From Octopus vulgaris (taxonomy: Eukaryota), in assembly GCA_951406725.2 (NCBI GenBank), contig OX597828.1, positions 8,370,001 through 8,434,000 of the forward strand: 64,000 nucleotides of DNA, read 5' to 3'. The position numbers and the translations under genes were made by a program. Shown here piece after piece: positions 569 to 64,000 of this stretch. Every line of letters begins with the position of its first letter. Within the stretch, counting starts at the first letter, position 1. The notes below the pieces were generated by a model. It saw only the letters and a program-made list of their open reading frames with translations, did not search any database and was not told where the DNA came from.

Positions 569-1649
569 GAGTTTCTTCATTAATTACTGTAAATAATTCA
601 ATATAATGAAATACGAGTTCAGATAATTATGCTGTTCAGAAATTTTAGATGTATTACAGGAATCTTTTCTTACGCACAATTTTTGGCTATAATAAATTTA
701 TGGTACCCTATATCAATCATTGATAATATTTTCAGGTATTGGTGTACTTCTGATTTCTGATTCTTTTCCAGTTTTCCTTATCTATTCCAGTTATTTTTTT
801 TTTTTCGTAACTTTAATTTTACCTTTGATATTTTACCATGATATTTTTTAAGCTCTATATTGGATAATGAGAATACTGATTTTTCATTTAAATTCCTTGC
901 TTCCTTAATGAATCTTCTTTCTAATCTCATCCAGTTATGCAATAGAGCTGTCAACCATGTGATATTGATAATTTACATTAAGTAAATGGCACTTGATGAT
1001 TTGACACATCATTCCTAAAATAGGTCTACAGCCGGATAAAACTATGAAATTGATTTTATACCATCAAAACTGGCCCTACGTGATCACCCAACTGGATAGA
1101 AATAGCAACAAAATATTCTTTCATTACACTATAGCGTCTTACATATAGCTACATTGTGTAACGTAATACTAGCTGCACAACAGTACAACAACAGCTGCTA
1201 CTAACGCCTATAGGGCAAAAGGGAATAGTAAACAAGACAAATTGAAACCAAATACGGTACGCTATTTGATTTAACCTTAAACACTCACCAAAGTCTCACA
1301 GAAGTTTTCAATGAGTCTTATGAAAGGATATAGGACGAGCTATTGTTAACACTTCCCCGTTTTAACACAATCACCCCCAGTAAAAGTTTTGTAAAGAATT
1401 GTGTAAAATAAGATGATAGTAAATGATAGTAAATGTTGTTCTACGATTTAAAATACTATAATTTGGATTGCTATTATGCTGATTTTCTGTGAAGAGAGAG
1501 AAAAAGAATTCACACAGACACATTTTGTGAATTTCCTCCACGCTGTAATTAGTTCTATCGTTAATGATATGTTTCATATCATAAAATGTTTAATTAATAA
1601 GTCGTACCTGATATCAAGCTGATGGTTTCTGAAAAAGAATGAAATAGTA

Positions 1650-1652
<3 letters not shown>

Positions 1653-1728
<76 letters not shown>
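1653..1728. repeat. (TA)n microsatellite
   Basis: Perfect TA run; one of dozens in the window. Confidence 0.97.
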
Positions 1729-1731
<3 letters not shown>

Positions 1732-3789
1732 CAGAGCTTCGTAATATGTAAAGGAATAAATAAATATATGAATTCTAAGAATCTTTAGCAGTATAATTCT
1801 TTAATTTCTAATATTCTTTACCGAAACAAAACTGGATGAACCATAAGTAGTTCAACGGTTCGTATTACATTATTGGTGTTTACAATCTCTAATGACTTGA
1901 CTCTTAACATCACAATTCTATATATATATTATGATTAGGGACACAGATCGCTAGAAACAATAGGCAGTCCATTTCGTTAACTTCTTGAATTTTGTTGAAA
2001 ACCTGACGTTCAAAGAATGCTTATAAAAAACAAAAAACAAAACAAAAACATTTATGTTGAAGTTTTCATTGAGCGCTGAGTAATGTCAGATAGAATTATA
2101 TTAGGAAATATTAATTACTAGAAATATTTACCAAATCTCCCTCAAACCGCACATCACCTCTCTAGAAATTGAAGTACTAGATTAAACATAAAAAAGGCGC
2201 AATATTCATCACTACTACGTTTTAATCCCAAGCCTGCGTTACCAGGGATCATCCGTTGGTTAACAAATCCAATAGCAATGTAGTCATTGTAAATACTATA
2301 CTTCTTTTCAAAAGACCAGTTTCGAGCAGATGCTGAGATAGTTGATACATTTCTTTCGGAGAATAATACTTTTTAGTAAAACTTTCCAAAGCATGAATCT
2401 GTCAGAATATGCGTTAAGAGGCCATTTTGCTCTGTGGATTTCAGCAGGTGGAATCTATATGTCAATCGATTGAAGATATATTCTCATTCAAAATGATCTA
2501 CTACCTTCTCTGTAATTCTCCTCTAAATGTTGCATGGCAGAGCGATAAGCGGATAGTTGCTATGTTTAGACGGCTTCCATTTAATTTATTTGGCGGGTTA
2601 CATCACTGAATTGCATATTTCGATGAGATGAGAAACCGAGTGGGTGTTAAAATGTAGAGTGTGAGTGTGAGAGTGTGCGCGTGCATATCTGAAAGAGAGT
2701 TTCTAGAGTAGAAACCGATAAAATCAGGTATTCCCATTGTAAAAAGAGAAAAAATATTGTGATATTTTTTTCTTGTAAATTCTTTAGTTCTTAATTTTTA
2801 ATTTGTTTTTCATTCGATGTTTCTCATTCAGTTTTCTTCATTGTTTCGATTTCAGAAATGAACTAATTTAAATCATTAGAAAACATTCATGATTTAAATC
2901 AAGAAAAACTAAATAAAATCCAAAATACACACCAGCGACGTGAACAAAAATATCACCATCAGCACCAACGTCCACATCAGCCCTAACAACAGACATTAAT
3001 TATTTCACTATTCATCTGTCTATGCTGTAATAATTTCAGATATTTTTGTTTGTTTTTATTTGTATTATTGTACCCTTTTATATTAGAGTATTTCTAACTT
3101 ATTCATTCGGAACATCTTATAGATTCGCTGAAATAATCAGTATTCTTTTGAAATTAATTGAAATTTTAATTGAAATAACAGAAACGGAAAGCGTTCGATG
3201 CAAAAATTCTGAGATGGGTGTGAATATTCATGAAGTCAGTTGATTCTCTTTCAGGACACATCTATTTCTCTTTCCGTATTATCAGTTAACATGGAAATTT
3301 TTAGACACTTCAGATTTTCACACAAATAACCATTTAATTTCATTGTAAATTTTTCAAATCCATTATTTACATGATAGTATATTTTATATTTAAACACAAG
3401 CCGCTCGCAACTGATTTCTCTAACTATAACTTTCACGCAAACGCTTCAAATCTTGGGCCGCTTGTTTTGGATCAGTTTCTTTACGGGGGCGGTTAAGTAG
3501 AAAAAATATATTACGCTGCAACAGAAAGAAATTCAATCGATGTAACATTCTAATCACTCTTGCAAAGTCCATTCCACAGAAATGTTAATAAGTTACTTCG
3601 AGTAATGTGTAACATGTAAGTAATGAGAAATATGATGAAGTGCAATGGAATGTTGAACGACTGTATAGTGTAGATATAAAAGAAGAGTGATATATGCAAG
3701 ACAAAAAGAGGGGTTATGATAGAGTATAAGAATTCCAGAATATAAATGGTCTACCCCATGAAGACAAACCGTAATTGAAGAAAGTAGAC

Positions 3790-14376: not shown

Positions 14377-15354
14377 TATCAGGTCACCCCCATAAGTTCT
14401 GTCCGAATTTTGGATAAAGAAAACGAGTGATCAAATGTTATATTTAATTGAAATTTAATCATCAATGTACTTTCCCTGATTATCTATGACTTCCTTCCAT
14501 CTATTTACAAACTTTTTAATCCCATCATTGTAAAACTATTTTGGTTTCAAAACAAAGAACTCTGAAACGTCAGTTTCTATCTCCTCCTGGCTTGCGAAAT
14601 GTAAGTCCCCCAAATGATTATGTAAATTACGAAACAAATTTTAATCTGAAGGAGCAAGGTCGGGAGAATAAGATGGATGAGAAAAATGTTCCCAACCAAG
14701 CTCTTCGATCTTCTGTGGTGTGATCTTTGCAGTGTGAGACCGCGCATTGTCCTGATGAAACATCACTCCTTTTCGATTCACTAAAGCGGGTTTTTTCACT
14801 TCAAAACTTGGATTCATGAGGCACCCATTTGCCAAGTTTAGGAAACTCTCCAAGTTATTGAAGATGACGATGAACAGTTGTATGGCTTGAACTAAGCTTT
14901 ATTGCCAATTCTTCAACTGATAAAACAGGATTTTCTTCAACTAATGCATCAGGGAGCTTATCATCAAAATCAACTGGACGTCCTGTTCGATCTTCATCTT
15001 CAAGGCTGATGTCTCCACTTCTGAATTTTGCAAACCATCTTCTGCAAGTTCTTTCATTCAAGCATTCTTTCTCATAAACTGAGTGTAAGTTTCTGTCGCT
15101 TCGGCTGCAGAGTTTCCTTTTTTGTACTCATAAAGCATCATGTGCCTCAAATGCTCTTTGGATACTTCCATGTTAGAAAGGGCTTTAATTCAAGAAATTT
15201 TGATTCTATTATTCTGCAAAATAATATTCAATTAATTTAAATTTACACAAATGTATAAAGATAATTTTAAAAACCCATTAGACATTCTAAAGTACTATTA
15301 AATTTCAATCAATTTTAAAAATGGTAAAATCGTACAGAACTTATGGGATGATTT

Positions 15355-25922: not shown

Positions 25923-28900
25923 ACATATATATATATACATGTACGCACATAGTTGTACGGAGATATATTTAAGAATATGTATACATGTGTGCGTGTATGT
26001 GTACGTGTGTGCCTGTGTGTACGTGAGCGTGTGTATATATATTTCTACATATGAATATAATAAGCAAATAATGCATGTGCCCCTCGCAAAACAATACACT
26101 GCAGCCCATATCATTTTCATTCACAGCGTGAACTATTCTGGGAATGCAACTTTTCCGAGCAAAGTGTTTGGAGATACGATGAGTTTTCCAGTGTGATATT
26201 TCTCTCACACAACCCACTTTCTACACGAATGTTTTTGAACGCTGTTATTACATTTCTCCCTTTGTGGGACTCGTCGAATTATTTGTTTAATACAATTCTT
26301 CCGAATTATTTGTTTAATACAGTAACATGGAAATTTAATCTCATTTTATTTAACTCCTTTTCTTTAACTTGGTACAATTTATGCTATTCTCAACCTTTCT
26401 TCCATTGTTGGATTCTCTCTCGAAAATGGCGATCAATATCCCTAACCGAGTGATGCTATATTTTGCCTAACAATGTGTGTTTGGCTATAAATGCATTTCA
26501 GTTGAAATAAACCTTCTTTACCTGTAAATACAGTGATCTAGAATATATGGTTCCGAAATTATAATTACTATTAACGGTTTGTTATCATTTGCGGATATTA
26601 TCTAGGTCATTGCATTAATCACAGGATAATACTAAGCGATTCAGTTCACCCGATTGTTGGTTATATGTAACAAAACTTCTAGCAATGTATCTTTTAAAAT
26701 TCACTTCTAATACAGGATATAGTTTATCTTTTACTTGCCAAATTAATTCGATTAGTACTGGAGATGGGCAGCAACATTTTCCCCTAAAGTGAATAATTAT
26801 ACCTACCTTCTTTCGTGTTATTTATGAGGAAAGGATTTGCTACTTCAAAGCGTGTACCTTATCAGTTCACTGCTACTATGAAAAAGCTATCGGTTGTTTC
26901 TATATATAAACGGATAATATGTATGTAAATGTATGTATGTATGTACGTACAAATGTAAGCCGGTCAGGAGTATTCAGTAGAGTATTCAATAGCTGAATTC
27001 GGAGTCAGAAGGATAATTTACAAATTATTGCCTTTATGTATTTTGATATTGAAGGCTAGCTTTAAACATACAGCTTCTATCTTCATACGTCAACTAAATC
27101 AACGATTTTATTTCTTCGTTAGTTCACGAGAACGAGAACCCAGATCTCAAATGCACACACGACACCCAAATTTCTGAAAATAGAAACGACGCATACGGCT
27201 AGAATTAGGTAATCTGCTGACAGAACGCATGTGGCTTTTGACGCTATGCCATTAAATGACTGCTTTCTTGTGGCACAACTCTGTTGGCTATGGAGTATCA
27301 TATTTCTTCCAAAATTTTCGAATATTAAAAAAACAATACAAATAAAAAACAAACCCCAAAAAAGGCAATGGTAATAAGTTCAGTTTCCATTTTTAAAATT
27401 TCATACTTTGATATCTATAATTACATCTTCGCAATAAATGTAATTGCATATTTTCGTAGTTAATAAAATTTCTTTAATGCAGAGTAATGAGATTGCATTT
27501 TATTCAATATGGCTTCTAAATGCAAGAACTACTATCGCCTCTGTATTGAACAATGTAGTTGATGAATTACAATACGGAAATGAGGATCGCCAGATTTGTA
27601 ATGTAAGCACCATATGATCCGCTTCCTGTCTAAATAACATAGGTGAACGGATATACATATATGGGTTATAAATATGTTGCGAATAATCATATCGGTACAA
27701 GCTTTACGTTTTATTGTTGTTAGGTTGTAAAGGGTATTTAGTAGAAACTGAACTTATATTATCGCCTATTCACAGACATTTTCTTTCTTAAAATGTGTCG
27801 ATGTAAAATCTCGCTGGTGTAGCATTTCAAAAGTAATGAATGAATATAAATTATTGTAAAATGATATAACTTTAAATCTGATGAGAGATTATCTTTAGTT
27901 AACACAGGTAACTGAATAACTAAATATCTATTTCTTTCCCTCTCTATTATTCTCTCTATATATTTCTCTCTCTCTCTCTCGCTCATCATATACATATGTT
28001 TGAGCGAGTGTTGTCTAACGTGCCAGTAAAAAAAATCACTCGTATGTTAGGTAACAAATTGGTTATATTCATTAAACAATATTATAAATTTATTCTTTGG
28101 CCAGTCGAAAACATCTGTGTTAGAGAACCTCCCAAGTGTTCGAAGGAAAATCAACAATTGTCATAAACAAATTTCCGGTAAAGTATATTCTGTTCGATTC
28201 ATCGATATCTGATGACTGATTTTCCCTTCCCACACATGGTAGGTTCTTTAACACGAAACCGTTCGATAACGGAAATCTGTTGTAAGGAGGGCATCATTTA
28301 TATTACTGTATAAATCACCGGTAATATAATCTTCCCCAATCGCATGCATTCCTTAATATTATCCAAAGTTGCATTTTGTGTTTTTAAAAGCAGTGTCCAG
28401 ATCATTATAGAAGCTTGAAAACATCAGAATTGATTTCAGTGCACGCAGCACATATTTTGATCTCATTCTTTGATTCGGTTCATCTTTGGTAACCAATGAG
28501 GGTAATCGCTTTTTGCTAATTAGGTGATTAGGTTGTATGTTACAGTAATTTGCTTAATCTATGTCACAATACCGTAAATACTCTGAGGAAGAAGAGCTAT
28601 CGTTACACGGTGGGATTATTTGTGTAGCGCTGTATGATTTCAGAAACGATTACACCTGGACAATGTATCAATACTTTTCCTTTAATGTGAACATGTGGCG
28701 ATATAATATGCCCTACTAGTGGGTGTGTATCAATGCATTGGCGTATATATATATATGTGTGTGTTGAAGCATGCGTTTTTTCATAAGGTTCTTGATATGA
28801 AACCTGTATGTCTATTATATATATATATATATATAGTCACTGTTGTGTTTTGGGTGGGTAAATCTACCGGAGATTTATAGGATATGTTACACATGAGTTA

Positions 28901-28941
28901 CTGAAACAACTTTGTGAAGCAATTAGTATTAATTATTGGCA

Positions 28942-29162
28942 AAGGCGGGGAGCTGGCAGAAACGTTCGCTCGTCGGGCATAATGTTTAGCGGTATTTCGT
29001 CTGTCTTTTTGTTCTGAGTTCAAAGTCTGCTGAGGTCGACTTTGCTTTTCATCCTTTCGGTGTGGACTAGTTAAGTACCAGCTGCATACTGAGGTCTATC
29101 TAATCGACTGGGCCTCCCCGCTCCCCCAAAATTTCGGGCCTTGTGCTTAGAGTAGAAAAGAA
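28942..29162 (+). mobile_element. SINE family B copy with 15 bp target-site duplication
   Basis: AAGGCGGGGAGCTGGCAGAAACGTT head; TSD TATTAATTATTGGCA at 28927-28941 and 29163-29177. Confidence 0.92.
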
Positions 29163-30601
29163 TATTAATTATTGGCAGAATGCAAATGAGTCAAAACAAT
29201 ACACTAACAAACACATACACACACATACATATATAATCAAATTAAATATTCTCAGTAAAGGACTATATATTTCAAAATGTAGGAGTATATTTATTCAATT
29301 GTAAATCGATAGTTATTTCAATTTATTTTACTATTTTCAGTGGTTATACTGATATTAAAAAGATATTACATAATATCTATATAAATCTAATTATTAAAAA
29401 AATTCAACGAAAAGATAACTTTAAAAAAACCTTCCCTTGAGAGATAATGTGAATCACTTATGCATAACGGATTTCCAAATTTTTTTAACCAAGTATAATT
29501 TTATAGCATGATTTGAATATCTATTGAAAATGTAATAGGACAATATTTTTTGTAAAAGATAACGATAGAAGAAAGAGAAGGAAAGATAAAGACAGCAAAC
29601 TATAGAATGGTGTGGAAAGACATAGATAAAGCTCTAAGATCTCACATATCAAATAACATAGTGGATGAATTCTTTATTTATTGGAGCAGAACAATCCCAT
29701 GGTGGCCAGTGGTATTCTTCTGCAAATGGGAATGAGAGATTATCGCCAGAATCAAGAGTTTTCCCTAAATTGACATGACATTTAAGAAACGATGTTGGGT
29801 TTATCACAATTTTTCATAAGAAATCTGTATCAATTGCATTTAAGTTAAAGGTCAACCGTCACAGGAAGCGAAGGTAATTTCCTTAAACCAAGAAGTTATA
29901 TTGTATGCCATTTGTATTCTATATTCACATTTTTTTCTTTCAAATACAAGCTACCAGCAGCCGTCTCAAGTTATTTGTCTTATCTCATATTTGATTTATT
30001 TGTACAAATCAACAATATCATAAACATGCTCCACTTTTTTTCCCTTTTTATATGTAAGTGTTTCGTCTGCCTGATAAACGGTGATGCGGTAGAGTAAATG
30101 TTATAATGCTGCTGCTCGTTGGAGCGAAAACACAAACCAACAGCTGCTCTCATTTCTTCAGACGATGGTAATGAAATTATCCCAATTCTCATTTCGAGTT
30201 GGTACAAGTTTCCCCACCTCCAACCCTTTAGTGATTGCTCTTTCCTTTTATTCGTTCTGATTGCTGAGATAATTTTAATAAACTAAAAATTTATCTTGTA
30301 TAATATGTAAAATAAGCTTATTCATTTCTCTAAATTAAGTCTTCTTTTATGTAGTTAACAATTTAAGTGACTAATACATCTATAATATTGATTTATATTG
30401 CCAGCATATATAAGATATAAGATATATAAGACATAATGCGTAACTATTATAAATCAGTGGTTTCATTGTCGATACGTTTCTTAAATGAAAAGACATCACA
30501 TTAAGACGTAATTTCATTTCTATCCTAATTGATATTAAAGCAATTTGTACCTTTATATGCCTGGTCAAGTTTAACCAACGTAGCTCTATCTACTAATTTA
30601 G

Positions 30602-31879: not shown

Positions 31880-32690
31880 GGTTTCAAATCTTGGCACAAA
31901 GCCAGCAACCATGAGGGAGGGATAAACTGATCACATCGACACTAGTTCTTGACTGTTACTTAGTTTATCGACCCAGAAAGGATGATAGGCAAGGTCGAAC
32001 TCGGCGTGATTTCAGCTCAGAAATTAAAGACGAACGAGATGCTGGTATGCATTTTGACCGGTGTTCTAATAGACTTCAAGTAATAATATCGGTTTCAGAT
32101 TGTGGCACAAGGCAAATAATTACGGGGAAGTTGATTACATCGACCATAGGCTTCAAATGGCATTTATCTATCGACTTCTGAAAGGAAAAATAAAAATGGC
32201 AACTGTATTCTGTACACAGAACGTAATGACAAATGATGCAACGTATTTTGACCTGCGTGCTAGCAATTCTTTTCTCCTTTGGCACAAGGCCCTGAATTTT
32301 GGGGCAGAGGACCGGTCGATTAGACCGACCCCATCACGCAACTGGTACTTAATTTATTGACCTCGAAATGATGAAAGGCAAAATCGACATCGGTGGAATT
32401 TGAACTCAGAACGTAAAGATACGAAATATCGCTAAGCATTCTTTTCTACTCTAGACACAAGACCCGAAATTTTGGGGGAAGGGGCCAGTCGATTAGATCG
32501 ACCCCAGTAGGCAACTGGTACTTAATTTATCGACACCGAAAGAATGAAAAGCAAAGTGGACCTCGGCGGGATATGAACTCAGAATGTAAAGACAGACGAA
32601 ATGCCGCTAAGCATTTCACCCGGCATGCTAACCATTCTGCCAGCTCGCCACCTTTGCGTGCTAGCAAATTCTGAAAACCCATCACCCTAT
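31880..32690 (-). mobile_element. Cluster of four SINE family B copies (tandem and nested)
   Basis: Four repeats of the GGCACAAG..GTCGATT..GAAAGGCAAAGTCGAC..TGAACTCAGAACGTAA module. TGCGTGCTAGCAA is duplicated at 32254 and 32655 around the inner copies. Confidence 0.88.
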
Positions 32691-35270: not shown

Positions 35271-35278
<8 letters not shown>

Positions 35279-36157
35279 TCAATATAGGGTGGCAAGGAAA
35301 ATTTTATATGGGAAAAAATTAAATAGTCATATTTTTAATCAACATTATATAATATTCACCCACTAGAAATAACAGCCAAATACCGCAAATAAAGATCAAT
35401 AAACAGGAGAAAATTAAAAAACATTTATAATATATACCGTTTCATCTGCTGTTTATAAACTAACCTGATTAAATTAAATCAAGCCAATCTTCCATAAGCC
35501 CTCAGATTCTTCAGCAAGAAATAGCTCAAGTCGGAACAGATATTTACACGAGGCATACCCAATCCTGCCAAGGCAATATCTGACCTAAAATTTTCAAATC
35601 GTCGCACTCGCGCCAAATTTATCGGCAGCAAATAAATCGTCGATTCCATTACGGAATTAACCAAAAAATTCATAATTAATCAATATAGGGTGGCAAGGAA
35701 AATTTTGCAGAATTTTTTTGCCACCAGCGGCCCAGTGGGAAAAAATTAAATAGTCATAGACCATTTTTAAGTTCAACATTAACAATTAAGGAACGGCCAT
35801 AATAGGCCATTCACCCACTAGAAATAACAGCCAAAGCTTCTACCGCAAATAAAGATCAATTCCGTAAACAGGAGAAAATTAAAAAAACATTTACCCTGTA
35901 ATTTCTTGTACGGTATACCGTTTCATCTGCTGTTTAATGGTAAACTAACCTGATTAAATTAAATCAAGCCAATCTTCCATAAGCCCTCAGATTCTTCAGC
36001 AAGAAATAGCTCAAGTCGGAACAGATATTTACACGAGGCATACCCAATCCTGCCAAGGCAATATCTGACCTAAAATTTTCAAACGTCGCACAAATTTATC
36101 GGCAGCAAATAAATCGTCGATTCCATTACGGAATTAACCAAAAAATTCATAATTAAT

Positions 36158-36164
<7 letters not shown>
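35271..36164 (-). mobile_element. Tandem two-monomer HHR-containing element in (TA)n (retrozyme-like, family 3)
   Basis: ATAATTAATCAATATA recurs at 35271, 35672 and 36149, giving units of 401 and 477 bp. Each unit carries an HHR core on the minus strand. TA runs on both sides. Confidence 0.85.
35901..36007 (-). ncRNA. Canonical type I hammerhead ribozyme with 58 nt stem II loop
   Basis: Minus strand: ATTTCTTG-CTGAAGA-ATCTG-(58 nt)-CAGAT-GAAA-CGGTATACCG-TA-CAAGAAAT. 8 bp stem I, all core nucleotides present. Confidence 0.9.
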
Positions 36165-36988: not shown

Positions 36989-37210
36989 GAGACCATTCGA
37001 CATCGCACTTTCGGTCCGTCAGGGATGCCCCCTCTCGTCGCCTCTGTACGTATTGACTCTCGAGCCATTATTGCGGAAGCTGGCAACTCTGAGGGGCATC
37101 CCGCGAGAACTGGGATGCGGGACCAGCGTGTCTGCATACGCGGACGACGTCACTGTCATAGTGTCTAGCCACGAGCACATCGAGCAGGTCGGCTAGACAC
37201 TGAAAAACTA
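36989..37210 (+). pseudogene. L1/Tx1-clade LINE reverse transcriptase fragment
   Basis: SVRQGCPLSSPLYVLTLEPLLRKL...SAYADDVTVIV motifs; a stop follows. Confidence 0.88.
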
Positions 37211-37335
37211 TCGACCCCGAAAGGATCAAAGGCAAAGTAGACTTCGGTGGAATTTGAACTCAGAATGTAACGTCAGACGAAAAACGGCTACGCATTTCGA
37301 CCGACGTGTTAACGTTTCTGGCAACTCGCCGCCTT
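37210..37335 (-). mobile_element. SINE family B 5' half
   Basis: ATCGACCCCGAAAGGATCAAAGGCAAAGT..TTTGAACTCAGAA..CTCGCCGCCTT. Confidence 0.85.
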
Positions 37336-38230
37336 CCTCCTCTTAACCATAAGTCTAGCCTAGTGCCCATTTGACCGTTGTTCTCATGTGTGTTGTGTCG
37401 ATAAGCTACAGAAGGACTTAAACAGCCCCGTACCACTTATATCATTGTCTACTCCCCCATAACCTTTACTTATTTTCTTATGTATTTTGTCTTTATTTAC
37501 ATATCGATTGTAACAGTATTACCTCATGCCCTAGGTTCAAATATAATCGACCAATTGCAAAGATCGCTTGACTTAACCCGTCTCATTGCGGACAACACGT
37601 GGGGTTCTCTGAAATATTTCTGTGAGTACACTATCTTAAGCACTATAAGGTAATATCTTGGACACATTGCAACTTAAGTTTTTTCGTTAGCATAGATAAT
37701 TCCCTTTAACAGTCATGCTAGCAAGTTTCCTTCTAGTTTTTTTTAATGATAATTTCTTTTCATAAATTGTTGAAACATCTTGGTTCTCTCTTATATTGGA
37801 ATTACCCTCAAATATCTTTTTACTCCCTGGACCAGTACTTCATAGCCCTACTCTTACTTCATAGCCCTAAGATGGTAGATTATATGCGTTTCATGTTTAG
37901 GCTTCCAGAACTTCTTTTCTCGGCCATATTCTCTTTCCTATTACTCATTCATTTTCTTTATTTTGGATGCTTTCGTTTTACTCTGCTGAAGCACCGTGCT
38001 CTGAATTTTATTTCCGCAATTATTTGTAAACATTGATCGGCACCGGATGCGGAAATAACCGTAAGATTTCTTATGTCATATAAATATCATGACATGTTTT
38101 GTATGAAAGAATAAGCTATAAATGTGGTCCATGGGTAACATGGGTAACGGATACCGATAATATATACGGATATTTTATCCTTTAGTCGGGTATTATAACC
38201 GCTAACTCTGATTACGTACATACATATACA

Positions 38231-42173: not shown

Positions 42174-42390
42174 TATAAATATATTTAAAGAGAATAATTA
42201 ATAATTTATCCCTTATGGGGTTTTTCACGCTAACTATTTGATATATTCTAAAGCACTTATCTTATTTTTATATTGTATATATATATTAGAAAAAATGAGG
42301 TAATCAGATCGGATGGTTCATATTCGTAGATATTTATTTATATATTACAGTTTTTACATATATATCATATCATTCAGATCATATCATTCG

Positions 42391-42429
42391 GATTAGCGCT
42401 TTCTCCCAATCTAGTGGAGTCTTCAAATC
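42391..42429 (-). ncRNA. Minimal hammerhead motif in the PLE terminal repeat
   Basis: Minus strand: gat-TTGAAGA-C-TCC(actagattg)GGA-GAAA-GCGC-TA-atc, with palindromic AGCGCT stem III and C3>U. Confidence 0.65.
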
Positions 42430-43039
42430 AAATCAATTGTGGGGAATTTGAACATTTTATAGTTTCGTAGGAGTGCGGAGGAATAAGACAGTATAAGAGG
42501 TTGAGGAGGAAGTGAGACAGAGGAAACATGTGTGTATGTGTATGTGTGTGTGTGTATATGTGTGTGTGTGTATGTGTGTGTGTGTGTGTGTGCGCGCGTT
42601 TATATCTGAGAGGGAAGAAGTGTTATTTCCGTTGGCCTACTGGACCTCCTGTGGTTTTATAAGAATTTTGGCTCTGTCCATTTTGATGTCACTGAGTGTG
42701 TGTTGTGCGTAGGTTGGCCGGACAAATGTCATTTGGGGTCACACTTTCTATGATCATTTTGTGGAGGTGTGTGTGTGTCTCTGTGTGTCCGTGTGTGTTT
42801 GTGTGTGTGTGTGTGTGTGTGTCTGTGTGTTTGGAGAAGGGGAGAGAGACAAAAAGAGAAAAGGGAAAATAAAAATTTAAAAAAAAATAAAAATATAAAA
42901 ATATAAAAATAAAAAATAAATTTTTTTTTTAAATATAAAAAATAAAAAATAAAAAAACAAATAAAAGTAAGGGAGGAAGTGGAGAAGAAAAATATTTTTG
43001 TGTGTTGATATTTATACCAATACATATATATACACACAC

Positions 43040-43326
43040 AGACTTATACATAAAATATTTGAAAAAAACCTTTTTATCGGTTCAAAATGAACAACCAAAT
43101 TATACCATCTTGAAAATTGTATATCATAGGAAAGTTAAAATTAAAGTGACAATTGAAAGGTAAAGATGGAAGTGAATTATAAAGATAATAATATAATATA
43201 ATGTATATAACAGGTAATACACATATCTATACACACACAGATATATATATATACATATAAACACACAGACATATACTAAATGTTCTACTATATTAGATTG
43301 TAAATCGAAAGATGCGTCCTTCAATG

Positions 43327-43373
<47 letters not shown>

Positions 43374-43645
43374 GCTTACACATGAAATATTAGGGAAAAA
43401 TCCACCTACTAACGAATCAAAATGAACAATCAAGTTACACCATCTTGAAAATTGCATATCATAGGAAGGTTAAAGTTAGAATGACAATTGGCAAGTAAAG
43501 ATCAAGTAAATTGCAAAAACAATATAATGTATGTAACAGGTAACATATATACACACACACACCTATATATATATACACACACACATATATTAAATGTTCC
43601 ACTGTATCATATTGTAAATCAAAAAAAATTTTTTGTCCTTCAATG
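43040..43645. repeat. Diverged direct duplication of about 300 bp in the PLE 3' UTR
   Basis: CAAAATGAACAA..CCATCTTGAAAATTG..ATCATAGGAA..GTCCTTCAATGT occurs at ~43083-43328 and ~43418-43646. Confidence 0.8.
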
Positions 43646-43661
43646 TATGTTGAGTAAAGTT

Positions 43662-44386
43662 TCAGCCATTTAATTTGGGGGAGAACTTAGCTATGAAATG
43701 TTTTTCCATATTCCTCCTGAAGGGGGTGTCGTTCTTCGGACACTTGTAGAAGGGAAATATCTTAAATTTTCCTTGTCCACATGTAGCTAGGTGTGTGCTT
43801 AGTGGTATTTTGCGTAGTTCTTCCTGCCGAATATGTTGTCGGTGGATCCTGGCTCGCTGGCACAAAGAATTACCAGTTTCACCTACGTAATTCTCCTTGC
43901 ACGTGGGGCAGGTTATGCAGTATATGACGTTCTGCGTCTTGCAGTTCATATCTGCATTTACTTTGAATATGTCACCATTTTTAAATCTTATCTCTCTGTC
44001 GCTCTCTATGTATTTGTAGGTGGGGTTGCTGCAGGTCCCACATCTACCATCTCCGCACTCTTTTGCAAAGAATTCCGTTTTAGTTTCTGAAGAGAATTTC
44101 GCTCTTGTTAGGTGTTTTTTTAGGTTTTTGTCCTGTCGTCTACTGTTTTTTATGCTATATTTGTTTAATATGTTTTTCATTTTGGGGCTTTGTAAGGCTA
44201 TTGGTAGGTTTGAATGTATGGTTTGGAAGATGTTGGTAACTCCAGGGTTGTGTGTGTTTATAAAAGGGATAGTGTTTTCTTTGTTTTTTGTTTTGGGTGT
44301 CCTGAGTTGTGTGATGTCTAGTTTTAATGCTCTTGTGATACCATTTTCTATTAGTTTAAGGGGGTATTTTTGCTCTAGGGGGAAGC
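43662..44386 (-). CDS. PLE polyprotein C-terminus: RT thumb/linker, Cys-rich linker and GIY-YIG endonuclease (5'-truncated, no stops)
   Basis: The frame extends upstream of the listed ORF: LEQKYPLKLIENGITRA..IPFINTHNP..; then CGDGRCGTC linker; then CKTQNVIYCITCPTCKENYVGETG..R..H..HLATC..R..E..FI GIY-YIG motifs. Confidence 0.85.
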
Positions 44387-44656
44387 TGATTCACAAATAC
44401 GATTAATAAGACTAGATGAACTCAAAAGCTTCCTCACACACACACACAAAATCACACACGGACACACAGAGACACACACACACACACACCTCCACAAAAT
44501 GATCATAGAAAGTGTGACCCCAAATGACATTTGTCCGGCCAACCTACGCACAACACACACTCAGTGACATCAAAATGGACAGAGCCAAAATTCTTACAAA
44601 ACCACAGGAGGTCCAGTAAGCCAACGGAAATAACACTTCTTCCCTCTCAGATATAA

Positions 44657-44688
<32 letters not shown>

Positions 44689-44830
44689 ATACACACACAC
44701 ATATACACACACACACATACACATACACACATGTTTTCTCTGTCTCACTTCCTCCTCAACCTCTTATACTGTCTTATTCCTCCGCCCTCCAACGAAACTA
44801 TAAAATGTTCAAATTCCCCACAATTGATTT

Positions 44831-44869
44831 GATTTGAAAACCCCACTAGATTGGGAGAAAGCGCTAATC
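44831..44869 (+). ncRNA. Second (inverted) copy of the PLE hammerhead motif, decayed
   Basis: gat-TTGAAAA-CCCC(actagatt)GGGA-GAAA-GCGC-TA-atc. Confidence 0.55.
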
Positions 44870-45144
44870 CAAATGATATGATCTGAATGATATGATATAT
44901 ATGTAAAAAATGTAATATATAAATAAATATCTAACAATATGAACCATCCGATCTGATTACCTCATTTTTTCTAATATATAATACCTGTACATCATCTCCA
45001 AACCTTCCGATATATATATATATATATATATAAAATCAGAACAGGAAAATTACATCAAAAAATCATTACAAGATATACGTCAAAAATAATATTGTATTAA
45101 TAGATAGAGGTATAAATATATGCCTCTGTCTATACCTATATATA

Positions 45145-45840
45145 ATTTGTGATTAATCTTTATATTTTGTATTCTTTTAATTTTGTATCTTTTCATTTGC
45201 CTTATGTTCTGGCGTCAGCTAAATTTTCTTGAAATCAAACTTTTCTTTGTGGTAAGAACATATGAGTCTACTTCTAGCATAATGGATGTCCACTTAATGG
45301 TCATCCCCCTTATATTTATGCAATATAATTTTTCTGAATCTTCAAATTTTTCAATATGCTAGATCACTGGTTGGAAACTGATATTAATCAAATTAATATT
45401 CAATTTTTCAACCTTTAGTATATTGAATTTAAAATAAAATATCCATGTTCTCTAACCGGCAAAATTCACTGTAGAGAATTATTTTCTGCTGAATTATTTC
45501 CGGTATTTTGGCGCTCCAAAACGAATATTTTTTGGAAGATAACCCCAAACGTAATTGGTAGAACTGTATACACATTCAATCTCATACGGACGTCTCGTAT
45601 CTAGTTTTTCAAATTATATTTTACTATGACGATCACACTGATGAGCTGTGAACAATTAAGTAATTAATTACGTAAGTGGTATCAACGAAACCGGATTTGT
45701 GATTAATCTTTATATGTTTCTTTCTCGCCTATGTTCTGGAGTTTGCTAAATTTTCTTGAGAACAATACTTTCTTAGTAGTAAGACCATTGGGGGGTCTAC
45801 ATCTAGCATAATGTATGTCTACTTAGTGGTAGGTCTCCGT
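45145..45840 (+). mobile_element. Partial tandem (550 bp monomer plus partial second copy) retrozyme-like element (family 5)
   Basis: ATTTGTGATTAATCTTTATAT..TATGTTCTGG..GCTAAATTTTCTTGA..CTAGCATAATG is repeated at 45145 and 45695, with an HHR motif at the monomer junction. Confidence 0.72.
45632..45703 (+). ncRNA. Type I hammerhead motif with long stem II loop, slightly decayed
   Basis: atcaca-CTGATGA-GCTG..CAAC-GAAA-CCGG-ATT-tgtgat. Stem I atcaca/tgtgat, palindromic CCGG stem III, imperfect at position 16.1. Confidence 0.7.
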
Positions 45841-46519
45841 ATCACAGCGAATGTGTATGCAATCATAGAGGCACAAGCGTGCAAACACAGACGCACACAC
45901 ATACATGTACATAATTTGTGTTCTCTTTCGAAGCGATAGTATAATTTGAATTTGTATTATCTCATGTATATTTGAAGGCACCAATTTACATCACATATAT
46001 GCAAGGACAATGCACAAAACTGCAGCAAACAACTGTAAATGATTTCCCAAACACACACATATTTATTCTTTATTTGACAATACCTATTAGCAGATATTAT
46101 CTCATATCAACTACTGCATTAAATTTCGGTCTTTGTAATCTATCAGTTGTAAGAAATGATACAGAGATTTCAATTATAGAATAATGCTACTTCTCTCGCA
46201 CATAACGAATTTTATGCAGCGGGGCCACCTCATAACAGCATCAACGATTTTTCGTCACTGTTTTCCTATAACAGTGAGGATGAATTTCGTCTTCGCATGC
46301 AGTTTCCAGGAAACTCACGAAGCCCAAAAATGCAGAAATGACCTTCTTAGCAATATCACCACCTCACCTGGACGAATTTCCTGTGCTACTACTGAAATTT
46401 TCTTTTGTATTTAACACTGTACTTGTGTAATATAATAACTATTATCGCAATAAAATTAACTCTCCGTGATATACATTTACTAAATATGATACACAATTTC
46501 CTATATATATATACTCTAA

Positions 46520-46970: not shown

Positions 46971-47863
46971 TGGGGCTAACGCAGAAACACGGCTTTTCTT
47001 AAAAATGCATTCTTTTCAAAAAAATGTGTTCAGATTTCTACGTTTTAGATGTTGTAAATTACGAATATCCGGAATCTCCGTCATCGAAAACATTGGACTC
47101 CGCTGAAAAACAGAAAAAAAGTCGGAACTGTCTATTTTAGCGTGTATATGGGGCGGGTGACTGTGCAGGGGGAAATTTGAAAACCTTAAAATTTGGAGGA
47201 AGGTGAGGTTGAGGTGAGGATTTTAAATCTGAAAAGGTGGTTTTAAAAAGAAACTTTCGAAAAAAGTTAAAAATTTTAAATGTTGTGTGGTGGTAGGGGA
47301 GGGGTGAATGAGAAACATTTTTTAAGGAGGTGAGCTGCCAGGAACGTTACCACACCGGGCGAAATGCATAGCGTAATTTCGTCAGCTGTTAAGTACTGGA
47401 TTCAAATTCCGCCGAGGACGACTTTGCCTTTCATCCTTTCGGGTCAATGAAATAAGTACCAGTTACACACTGGGGTCGATATAATCGATTTAATCCCATT
47501 GTCTGTCCTTGCTTGTCCCATCTATGTTTAGCCCCTTTTAGGGAATAAAGCAATAAGAAACGTTAGCACGTTGGACGAAATGCTTAGCGGTATTTCGTCT
47601 GCCGCTACGTTCAGAGTTCAAATTCCGCCGAGGTCGACTTTGCCTTTCATTCTTTCGGGATTGATAAATTAAGTACCAGTTACGCACTGGGATCGATATA
47701 ATCGACTTAATCCGTTTGTCTGTCCTTGTTTGTCCCCTCTGTGTGTAGTCCCTTGTGTGTAGTAATGAAATAGGTACTTCGTCTGCTGTTACTTTCTGAA
47801 TTCAAATTCCGCTTTTTAGAAAATGCATTTTTCCAGAAGAGCTGCGAATCTGCATTAGCCCCA
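46971..47863. mobile_element. Non-autonomous inverted-repeat element (about 45 bp IRs) interrupted by SINE B copies
   Basis: TGGGGCTAACGCAGAAACACGGCTTTTCTTAAAAATGCATT versus the reverse complement of 47822-47863, TGGGGCTAATGCAGATTCGCAGCTCTTCTGGAAAAATGCATT. Confidence 0.65.
47324..47812 (+). mobile_element. Tandem SINE family B (2 units plus a partial third)
   Basis: Repeated GAAATGC.TAGCG.TATTTCGTC..TTCAAATTCCGCCGAGG..GACTTTGCCTTTCAT..AAGTACCAGTTAC.CACTGGG. Confidence 0.9.
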
Positions 47864-54112: not shown

Positions 54113-54696
54113 GCATACAAACGCACAAATATACACACACGCACACACACACATATCTCACACATAGATTTATGTGTATACATAAAACAAACACATGGGC
54201 AATTTCACGTTTCCTCTGCCAGAATTCTTGCACAAAGCTCTTCAGAGTATAATTGCTAAATGTGCTTTCCTCGATTGAATCTTTGGGAAAGGAATATTTG
54301 AAACACACGAACATGCATCGTTCTTTATCCTCTCAAAGTTAGGCTCGATGCTAAGCAGGTTATGCTGCTCATTATAAGTTAATGAATAAGTAGATTTATA
54401 ATAAAAATTTCCAGAATTATCTAACAACTATCATATTTCAAATTAAGTAATTGAAGTCCTTACCAATACTTCTTGAAAAATGATCCCTACTGTGATCAAC
54501 CTTCAGTTCTTTGATGTCACCATATTGAATAAAAAATATACATCTGAATTCGTAAATACCATATTCGTCCGCTTGTAGCACAATCACCCTAAGTAATCTT
54601 CAGCCGCTTGTAGCACAATGGTCCTAAGTAATCGAACATATGAAACAAACATTTACAATGCCTTATAAAGAGTAAACAGGAATCCAAAATATATTC

Positions 54697-54910
54697 TATT
54701 CTACTCCAGGCACAGGGCACAAAATTTTGTGGGGAGGGGGCCAGTCGATTTGATCGATCCTAGTACATAACGGATACTTGATTTATCGACTCCGAAAGGA
54801 TGAAAGGCAAAGTCGACCTAGGCGGAATTTGAAATCAGAGCTTAAAGACAGACGAAATACCACCGAGCATTTCGTCCGACGTGCAAGCGTTTCAGCCAGA
54901 TCGTCGCCTT
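54697..54910 (-). mobile_element. SINE family B copy
   Basis: ATCGACTCCGAAAGGATGAAAGGCAAAGTCGACCTAGGCGGAATTTGAA core (reverse complement). Confidence 0.9.
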
Positions 54911-55206
54911 CCAAAATGTGAATATTACATAAGATGAAAATAAAAGTATTAAAAAATTGGGAAACATCGAGTTATATGGCATTATCCATTGAATTCTTCC
55001 TAAAACTACGAGAATATGTGCGAAGTTGGTCAAAAATGGAGAAATGAATCTTGTACTGCCGTAGACGACGATAATCCCGTCTGATATAAACAAAGAGGAT
55101 GGGTCCAACAGGCCTTGCATATTGGAAGAAATAACAGTTGAATATCCTTCAAATCCCACACTAATTTCTTATGAAATTTGAAAACGCATCGGCTAACGTC
55201 GTTCCG

Positions 55207-55861: not shown

Positions 55862-56861
55862 ACCGGGAAGCATTGCAGCAAATACCTCACAAGTTCTACT
55901 CAAAGACCTTGGCCTGCAGATGAGATCAAGACCGTCAGAAAAGAAATGATCTGTGGTAAAGCTCTCGGAGCTGTCGAAATAAACGAACAGTTCGCTGCTT
56001 TCTGTCGCTGGAAAAATCTTGGCCCGCTTCCTATTCAACAGACTCATCACCAGCGTCTCGGAGAGTAACTTGGCAGAAGCTCAGTGTTGCTTCCGCCCTG
56101 GCTGCAACACCATAGGCATGGTGTTTGCTGTGTGTCAAGTCAAGGAAAAGTGTATTGAACAACGGATGGAGTTGCAGTCTTTATTCATAGTCCAGACCAA
56201 AGCTTTTGGCATAGTCAATAGAGAAGCTTTGCGGACCACCCTAACTAAGCTACGCTGCCCACACAATTTCACCACACATATAATACTCTTTCATAACCAT
56301 ACGATCGGTCAAGTTCTTTGCAATGGCGACTGCAACTTTTTCAACATCTCCAGTGGCATGAAACAGAGCTGCATACTTGCCCCCGCCTTGTTCAATTTGT
56401 TCATCACACAGCTCTTGCTTTACGCAATGAATGACCTACACCTGGGCATATACATTACATATCGGTAAGATGGCTCAGTTTCTGACCTCCTCCGACTCTC
56501 TACTCCAACCAAGGCAGTGGAAAAGCTCATTACTGAAACCCTATCTGCAGATGATTATGCCTTTGTGGAACATGAGGTAAATCACATGCAGACATTTGTT
56601 GATTGCTTTATAAAAGCGACGAGGCTTTCTGGACTGATCATCAACCCTGCGAAAATGGAGGTTCTAGTCCAAGCAGCCCCGAACACATTTCGCCCTAGTC
56701 AAACATCAGCATCGAGGGAGTCCAGCTTAAGTGTGAGGAGAGTTTCAAGTAACTTGGCGGCACGATCTCAGACGTCGGATAATTGGACTGCAAAATTTCA
56801 TCCAGAATCCAGAAGGCCAGCCAATCATTTGGAAGGATGAATGGGAAAGGCATTAGACTAA
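55862..56861 (+). pseudogene. RTE-clade LINE reverse transcriptase core, inverted relative to the 3' part
   Basis: GKILARFLFNRL..EAQCCFRPG..KEKCIEQ..TKAFGIVNREAL..GMKQSCILAPALFNLF..SADD..GLIINPAKMEVL..RIQKASQSFGR. Confidence 0.9.
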
Positions 56862-59564: not shown

Positions 59565-59773
59565 AAGGCAGCGAGCTGGCAGAATCGTTAACACGCCGAG
59601 CAAATGCTTAGTGGCATTTTGTCCGTCTGTTGTTCTGAGTTCAAATTCCGCGGAAGTCAACTTTGTATTTCAGCCGTTCAGGGTTGATACGATGAGTTCC
59701 AATTGAAAACAAGGGTCGACATAATCGATCTATCCCATCCTCGAAGTTCCTGACCTTGTGCCAAATCTTGAAA
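59565..59773 (+). mobile_element. SINE family B copy
   Basis: AAGGCAGCGAGCTGGCAGAATCGTT head through CCTTGTGCCAAATCTTGAAA tail. Confidence 0.88.
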
Positions 59774-63769: not shown

Positions 63770-63982
63770 CAAGGCAGCTTGCTGGCAGAATGGTTAGCAC
63801 GCCGAGCCACATGCTCAGCGCCATTTCCTCCGTCTTCAAGTTCTGAGTTCAAATTCTGCCGAGGTCTACATTGCTTTCATTTCGTCGGGGTCGATAAAAT
63901 GAGTACCAGTTGAGTAATGACGTCGATCTAATCGACTTATCCCTCTCTTCAATTGCTGACCCTCTGATAAAACTTGAAACCA
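63770..63982 (+). mobile_element. SINE family B copy, head-to-head with the previous copy
   Basis: AAGGCAGCTTGCTGGCAGAATGGTTAGCACGCCG..GTTCTGAGTTCAAATTCTGCCGAGGTC..GGGGTCGATAAAATGAGTACCAG. Confidence 0.88.
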
Positions 63983-64000
63983 ATAATAATAACAATAATC

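What the first reader, a model, noticed from the sequence alone, without database searches (positions are those of the whole stretch)
45145..45840. 550 bp monomer whose first copy begins at the predicted ribozyme cleavage site
Seen: the repeat starts at 45145 (ATTTGTGATTAATC) directly after a TA run. The same sequence recurs at 45695 as the 3' strand of stem I of the HHR at 45632-45703. The insertion's 5' end therefore coincides, within a few nt, with the self-cleavage position. Inference: the template was a ribozyme-processed RNA. The two copies are clearly diverged, so the insertion is old.
Basis: partly seen in the sequence, partly recalled or inferred. Interest (0 to 1): 0.72.

Follow-up and report, generated by a model that had tools for sequence, protein, structure and literature searches.

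The report
Old hammerhead-bearing Penelope-type repeat insertion
This is an old, decayed copy of a common non-coding jumping repeat that carries a self-cutting RNA motif; it begins where that motif should cut, but a short match to the landing site explains the junction about as well, so one copy cannot show that the ribozyme made the end.

Summary
A real minimal type I hammerhead lies at 45631-45704 (1 hit in the window, 0.01 expected), cutting at 45697/45698. The following ~160-185 nt recur from 45145 at 82% identity: about 1.3 units, not two monomers. The 550-nt unit is non-coding and is a high-copy family in four public runs, whose majority letters restore helix II. It fits a non-autonomous Penelope-type element (animal non-LTR retrozyme), a known kind. 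New here: a candidate 10-20-nt target-site duplication (45132-45151 / 45901-45920; about 3-4% by chance). If real, the first 7 letters of copy 1 are a microhomology with the target that straddles the cut site (-3 to +4). A cleaved RNA and an uncleaved RNA joined by microhomology then both fit. The copy also reads through an intact ribozyme, and the one biochemical study I read found cleavage dispensable. No genome was available, so 5' ends of other copies could not be plotted. The scan noted similar single cases in other genomes, and one counter-case. Probability that cleavage set this end: about 0.35.

The parts
45145..45330 (+). Copy 1 of the post-cleavage segment (stem I 3' strand, U-rich tract, conserved block); the 5' pseudo-LTR of the insertion
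45148..45697 (+). 550-nt unit from cut-site equivalent to cut site; non-coding; more structured than shuffles as a circle (-106 kcal/mol, z -3.6, 40 shuffles); high-copy family
45631..45704 (+). Minimal type I hammerhead: helix I 7 bp, core CUGAUGA/GAAA, long single-register helix II (45645-45664 with 45667-45686), palindromic CCGG stem III with an extra A at 45695; predicted cut 45697/45698; decayed in this copy
45695..45867 (+). Copy 2 of the post-cleavage segment; ends about 133-170 nt past the cut site (inferred start of reverse transcription)
   Evidence: analogy with PMC11167929
45132..45151 (+). Candidate left target-site duplication; its last 7 nt are identical to ribozyme positions 16.2 to 1.4 (microhomology across the cut site)
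45901..45920 (+). Candidate right target-site duplication: 17 of 20 identical, last 10 exact; that 10-mer occurs only twice in the window; 3-4% of 1477 random window stretches score as well
45868..45900 (+). AC-rich stretch between copy 2 and the right candidate duplication; not aligned to the unit; origin unknown
45350..45430 (.). Long fold-back within the unit; lies in the most deeply covered part of the family
42275..45009 (-). Neighbouring, younger Neptune-like Penelope-like insertion (GIY-YIG ORF 43662-44390, inverted arms); context, probably a separate event

Best explanation
An old more-than-unit retrocopy of a non-autonomous, hammerhead-bearing derivative of a Penelope-like element (animal non-LTR retrozyme type). 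A Penelope-like RT/endonuclease supplied in trans nicked an AT-rich target and began reverse transcription about 130-170 nt downstream of a ribozyme (inferred). It read back through that intact ribozyme and one whole 550-nt unit (shown by the anatomy). It was then joined to the target through a 7-nt microhomology that overlaps the next ribozyme's cut site (inferred from the candidate duplication). The copy then decayed by about 10% per repeat. Whether the RNA ended at the cut site (about 0.35) or the cDNA jumped there by microhomology (about 0.5) cannot be told from one copy.
For: Real hammerhead. In all 4 runs laid, the family-majority letters at 45646, 45659 and 45682 each restore a Watson-Crick pair of helix II, and the fourth listed change (45651) keeps a pair as G-U. 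The whole unit is multi-copy, and paralogous contigs bridge 45392-45617 and 45539-45715 and join 45788 to 45266, so the unit's links are family properties. No coding signal. In 7 of 19 Neptune-like relatives examined, a permissive descriptor finds a sense-strand hammerhead 55-285 nt after the ORF, mostly followed by a T-rich tract as here; L005 has the same CCGG stem III. PMC11167929: RT starts internally about 85-92 nt past the cut and the endonuclease prefers ATT. PMC7229834 and 10.64898/2026.07.22.740005 describe such units.
Against: No autonomous partner was linked to this unit by sequence: no DNA similarity to the neighbouring element or to 29 related loci. No tandem array of complete units was seen, and only one ribozyme is present. 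The duplication is only suggestive (p about 0.03-0.04, found after looking). The 33-nt AC-rich stretch before it is unexplained. 45064-45139 upstream is itself moderately repeated (11-22 contigs at 45082), so the left flank may be another repeat. 12 of 19 relatives gave no descriptor hit.
Confidence: 0.75

Rival explanations
1. One reading: the template RNA was cut by the upstream hammerhead, RT ran off its 5'-OH end at 45148, and the last 4 nt paired with the target; the 3 letters before the cut match by chance or through an ATT-preferring endonuclease.
For: The junction lies at -3 to +4 of the cut; uniform chance is 0.7-1.3%. The candidate duplication supplies the ATT from the target. Summed depth rises about 5-14-fold just downstream of the cut in all 4 runs, though this measure is confounded. 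Animal retrozyme RNAs are cut to monomers (PMC7229834).
Against: One copy, picked because of the coincidence. Needs a ~4% chance match of ATT. The same molecule kept an uncut ribozyme. Most family depth keeps the extra A in stem III (it is absent in 6-17%), which should weaken cleavage. PMC11167929 found no RNA ends at the cut and no need for cleavage. The 5' repeat of relative L009 includes the whole ribozyme-like motif. No pile of loose ends at 45145-48 or 45695-98 among the 24 of 1037 rows shown (weak).
Confidence: 0.35
2. Uncleaved or circular RNA: the cDNA ran past the cut site and was captured by the target's 3' overhang through the 7-nt match, as in ordinary 5' truncation; or the enzyme chose a target resembling its own repeat.
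For: A 7-nt identity spans the scissile bond, including 3 nt that a cleaved RNA lacks. Read-through of ribozyme 2. In vitro the anole element uses unprocessed RNA and cuts ATT near its own ORF-pLTR junction.
Against: It must still land on the cut site by chance (about 1%). My rough estimate, not a tool result, leaves a 3-10-fold likelihood advantage to the cleaved model before the low prior and selection are applied.
Confidence: 0.5
3. Not one insertion: two independent insertions or a later deletion or recombination created the partial tandem, or it is the tail of an autonomous element such as the neighbouring Neptune-like copy, inherited with an already diverged internal repeat.
For: The young neighbour carries an 82%-identical ~310-nt internal tandem. 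Penelope-like elements insert next to older copies (PMC6765202). The two repeats are no closer to each other than to family paralogues.
Against: Both repeats depart from a single family sequence. The candidate duplication brackets the whole. The neighbour ends in a tail and (AT)n at 45009-45032, followed by a coverage minimum at 45026-45063. Only 1 of the 40 best-supported variants lies in the neighbour's arm against 38 in the finding.
Confidence: 0.15

Closest known systems
Animal non-LTR retrozymes (PMC7229834; 10.64898/2026.07.22.740005)
   Same: Non-coding, AT-rich, type I hammerhead, head-to-tail unit, structured as a circle, high copy, co-occurring with autonomous Penelope-like elements; 550 nt lies within the 51-972 bp range of the preprint
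   Different: Longer than the 150-450 bp of PMC7229834; only 1.3 units and one ribozyme here; a minimal Penelope-type ribozyme with a 20-bp helix II rather than a canonical one; no RNA evidence
Pseudo-LTR partial tandems of endonuclease-positive Penelope-like elements, Neptune and Poseidon clades (PMC4209133, PMC8557442, PMC11167929)
   Same: Minimal hammerhead with palindromic stem III and long helix II; sense-strand ribozyme followed by a T-rich tract; 3' end a short way past the ribozyme; AT-rich or microsatellite target
   Different: No ORF between the repeats; 3' end 133-170 nt past the cut against about 85-92 nt in the anole element and 44 nt in L002; extra A in stem III
R2 and L1Tc elements with 5' HDV-like ribozymes (PMC6765202)
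   Same: The proposed logic: a self-cleaving ribozyme frees the RNA and sets the element's 5' end
   Different: Different ribozyme and retroelement class; established there, unproven for Penelope-like hammerheads

Membership tests
Type I hammerhead ribozyme (minimal, Penelope-type) | Core CUGANGA...GAAA...UH with helix I closing the ends | tested here: met
   7-bp helix I, U16.1=45696, U17=45697; 0.01 expected by chance
Type I hammerhead ribozyme (minimal, Penelope-type) | Helix II with G10.1-C11.1 | tested here: met
   14 of 20 positions pair in one register; 3 family-majority letters restore further pairs
Type I hammerhead ribozyme (minimal, Penelope-type) | Palindromic 15.2-16.2 / loop 3 allowing a dimer | tested here: inconclusive
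   CCGG present but followed by an extra A; that A is absent in 6-17% of family depth
Type I hammerhead ribozyme (minimal, Penelope-type) | Self-cleavage activity | not testable with these tools
   needs an in vitro assay
Non-LTR retrozyme | Non-coding unit | tested here: met
   no ORF of 90 aa or more, no meaningful Pfam, HMM or tblastn hit
Non-LTR retrozyme | High-copy dispersed family | tested here: met
   1209-3474 contigs laid per run on 44760-45870 in 4 of 4 runs; up to about 100 contigs at single positions of the unit
Non-LTR retrozyme | Tandem of two or more complete ribozyme-bearing units | tested here: inconclusive
   Not met at this locus (1.3 units, one ribozyme). Family contigs show each link of the unit, but no array could be seen without a genome
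Non-LTR retrozyme | Expression as monomeric linear or circular RNA | not testable with these tools
   no RNA holder listed
Autonomous Penelope-like element | RT plus GIY-YIG ORF between the pseudo-LTRs | tested here: not met
Autonomous Penelope-like element | Partial tandem with a hammerhead in the pseudo-LTR region, AT-rich target | tested here: met
Ribozyme-defined 5' end (R2-like logic) | 5' ends of many copies pile up at the cut site | not testable with these tools
   no genome; contigs cannot show ends; three collection scans with DNA patterns were empty

The most novel reading that the evidence does not exclude
In this family the hammerhead really cuts the transposition RNA in vivo, so that pseudo-LTRs are bounded at the 5' side by the ribozyme cut and at the 3' side by the internal RT start. 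Genomic copies would then be a fossil record of hammerhead action in Penelope-like retrotransposition, contrary to the in vitro result that cleavage is dispensable.
Probability: 0.3. Interest if true: 0.65.

Novelty: new member of a known kind. Interest (0 to 1): 0.33.

Why it matters
The element class is known. The function of hammerheads in endonuclease-positive Penelope-like elements is stated to be unclear (PMC8557442), and PMC11167929 found no RNA ends at the cut site. A high-copy family with readable target-site duplications would make the question directly testable by counting 5' junctions. My eight searches (open-access library only) listed no title or abstract opening on such a count, nor on this family, and the text I read reports none. 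One old copy with an ambiguous junction is a lead, not an answer.

Tried and rejected
No genome is held, so copies could not be collected. DNA-pattern scans of metagenome, genome and viral contigs found 0 matches. A protein scan of genome contigs gave 19 candidates and 0 relatives. Sequencing runs: no RNA holder listed; this says nothing on expression. The step in summed depth across the cut site was not used as support: the tool says it is no copy number, contig counts differ only about 2-fold, this copy mismatches the family in the ribozyme, and the deepest part is a fold-back. Absence of loose ends at the cut site is inconclusive (24 of 1037 rows shown). My early idea that the minus strand encodes a decayed endonuclease was rejected: nothing meaningful from Pfam on 3 frames, from an HMM of 13 relatives on six frames, or from tblastn/tblastx with 48 ORFs of 29 loci (best E 0.015). 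The idea that the flank is a decayed upstream ribozyme or an inverted copy of the unit was rejected by shuffles. Rfam found no match at gathering score and 6 chance hits. Look-ups of earlier findings by sequence and by place were empty. PMC5850863 and PMC5785218 are not held; the ribozyme details there and Fig. S2 of PMC11167929 (not seen) may bear on the 5'-end question. Of 29 related loci, 19 whose match reached the ORF end were examined for ribozymes and 10 were left out; at least two descriptor hits (L013, L019) are doubtful.

Full report
Observation. The window is AT-rich, microsatellite-rich animal DNA. It looks octopus-like to me from recall; no call names it. An identical 20-mer starts at 45145 and 45695. 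The repeat continues at 113 of 138 columns (82%, corrected distance 0.21) to about 45830, and weakly to 45867. Upstream sequence is unrelated at four lengths tested. The insertion is therefore one 550-nt unit plus about 0.3 of another. The preceding TA run is (TA)4.

The ribozyme. 45631-45704 is a minimal type I hammerhead with a 7-bp helix I, an intact core and G10.1-C11.1. Helix II pairs at 14 of 20 positions in one register. It is the only descriptor hit in the window, against 0.01 per shuffle in 100 shuffles. Rfam misses it and this copy does not fold into it freely. Contigs of four public runs (organisms A, B, C) show that it is decayed. The majority letters at 45646, 45659 and 45682 each restore a Watson-Crick pair in all four runs, and the change at 45651 keeps a G-U pair (40 of 210 variant rows shown). 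Stem III is the palindrome CCGG plus an extra A at 45695, absent in 6-17% of depth (4-7 contigs per run). No change at U16.1 (45696) is among the rows shown. The predicted cut is 45697/45698, so the shared sequence begins 3 nt before it.

The family. All parts of the unit are covered by many paralogous contigs. Single contigs bridge 45392-45617 and 45539-45715, and joints link 45788 to 45266, so each link of the unit exists in other copies. Near-identical contigs of this locus (1-2 differences in 146-188 nt) occur in organisms A, B and C, and both repeats depart separately from one family sequence, which supports an old insertion. The unit has no coding signal and folds better than shuffles as a circle (z -3.6, 40 shuffles).

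Context. A younger Neptune-like Penelope-like insertion occupies 42275-45009. It has a GIY-YIG ORF 41-57% identical to 13 database proteins, 12 of them with an RT domain on record, 96%-identical inverted arms, a short inverted ORF piece, a tail of about 28 nt and an (AT)n target. The Neptune assignment rests on the CX2-5CxxC linker named in PMC8557442. It shares no sequence with the finding, and coverage is lowest between them. Among 19 of 29 related loci examined, 7 have a descriptor hammerhead on the sense strand 55-285 nt after the ORF, mostly followed by a T-rich tract as here; several more are visible by eye. In L009 the 5' repeat contains the whole ribozyme-like motif, though the contig starts there.

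The junction. 45132-45151 and 45901-45920 are 17 of 20 identical with the last 10 exact. That 10-mer occurs only at these two places in the window, and 2.8-4.3% of 1477 random window stretches score as well. This was found after looking and is suggestive only. If it is a target-site duplication, the first 7 letters of copy 1 belong equally to target and element, and the true 5' end lies anywhere from -3 to +4 of the cut. This removes the objection that a cleaved RNA cannot supply the first three letters. It also gives an uncleaved cDNA a reason to join exactly here. Uniform chance of landing within 3 nt is 1.3%, and the chance of ATT in this flank is 4%.

Mechanism. Shown: the anatomy, the family, the decay, and an intact ribozyme inside the copy. 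Inferred: target-primed reverse transcription by a Penelope-like enzyme in trans, starting internally downstream of the ribozyme. This follows the anole element, where RT starts 111-118 nt into the ORF, the cut is at +26, the endonuclease prefers ATT, ribozyme mutants still insert, and no RNA reads end at the cut (PMC11167929). Open: whether the RNA was cut (about 0.35) or the cDNA jumped by microhomology from uncut or circular RNA (about 0.5). These odds are my judgement.

Known kinds. Minimal hammerheads with a long helix II and palindromic stem III in pseudo-LTRs, with self-cleavage and circularisation proposed (PMC4209133, parts 1-2 of 4 read). Partial tandems, inverted copies, tails and unclear ribozyme function (PMC8557442, passages). 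Animal non-LTR retrozymes (PMC7229834, passages and parts 2-4 of 6) and their derivation from pseudo-LTRs (10.64898/2026.07.22.740005, parts 1-3 of 5). Ribozyme-released RNAs of R2 and L1Tc (PMC6765202, passages). PMC11167929: parts 1-2 of 4 and passages read; Fig. S2 not seen. Hammerhead numbering and the general link between microhomology and 5' junctions of retroelements are from my own knowledge. The finding works like a non-autonomous Penelope derivative. Strict retrozyme membership (two complete units, RNA circles) is untested, and it is not an autonomous element.

Earlier notes of this scan (AI-written, unchecked) record similar single cases in other genomes, one family starting upstream of the ribozyme instead, and one case where junctions argued against cut ends. 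They are leads, not support.

Verdict. A real, well-spotted feature of a known class. The mechanistic claim is plausible, unproven from one copy and weakened by the microhomology, but it is cheap to test with an assembly. Interest 0.33.

Noticed in passing
window 42275-45009: Complete young Neptune-like Penelope-like insertion with head-to-head architecture: 550-nt inverted arms 96% identical, 242-aa ORF end on the minus strand, a ~46-nt inverted ORF piece at 44388-44433, a ~28-nt tail, TA/AT repeats at both ends; no hammerhead found in it
   Followed up: partly
window 43008-43650: About 310-nt tandem duplication at 82% identity inside the 3' UTR of that young element, so diverged internal repeats can predate an insertion
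   Followed up: partly
window 45091-45146: Hairpin (15-bp inner stem plus 7-bp outer stem, -21.1 kcal/mol) directly upstream of the finding; the region is itself repeated in 11-22 contigs per run; identity unknown
   Followed up: partly
window 28940-29165, 32266-32654, 37209-37337, 47315-47772, 54693-54919, 59565-59773, 63771-63985 and others: Dispersed ~200-nt SINE-like repeat, sometimes in tandem pairs
   Followed up: no
window 28197-28290: CUGAUGA and CGAAACCG motifs about 45 nt apart without a good helix I; possibly a decayed hammerhead or chance
   Followed up: no
L002 716 and L009 about 3845: Hammerhead-like motifs with the U3-A8 core variant after Neptune-like ORFs (L009 by eye)
   Followed up: partly
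L002 800-858 and 1241-1299; L001 3' end: A 59-nt direct repeat follows the TA run of L002, and its first part also follows the T-rich tract in L001; may be a tail or target sequence
   Followed up: no
window 35274-36164: About 400-490-nt tandem pair at 81% identity next to an (AT)n run, with CTGAAGA motifs on the minus strand at 35514 and 35999
   Followed up: no
window 55983-56840 and 14855-15127: Frames that look, from recall, like remnants of an RTE-type RT and a mariner-type transposase
   Followed up: no
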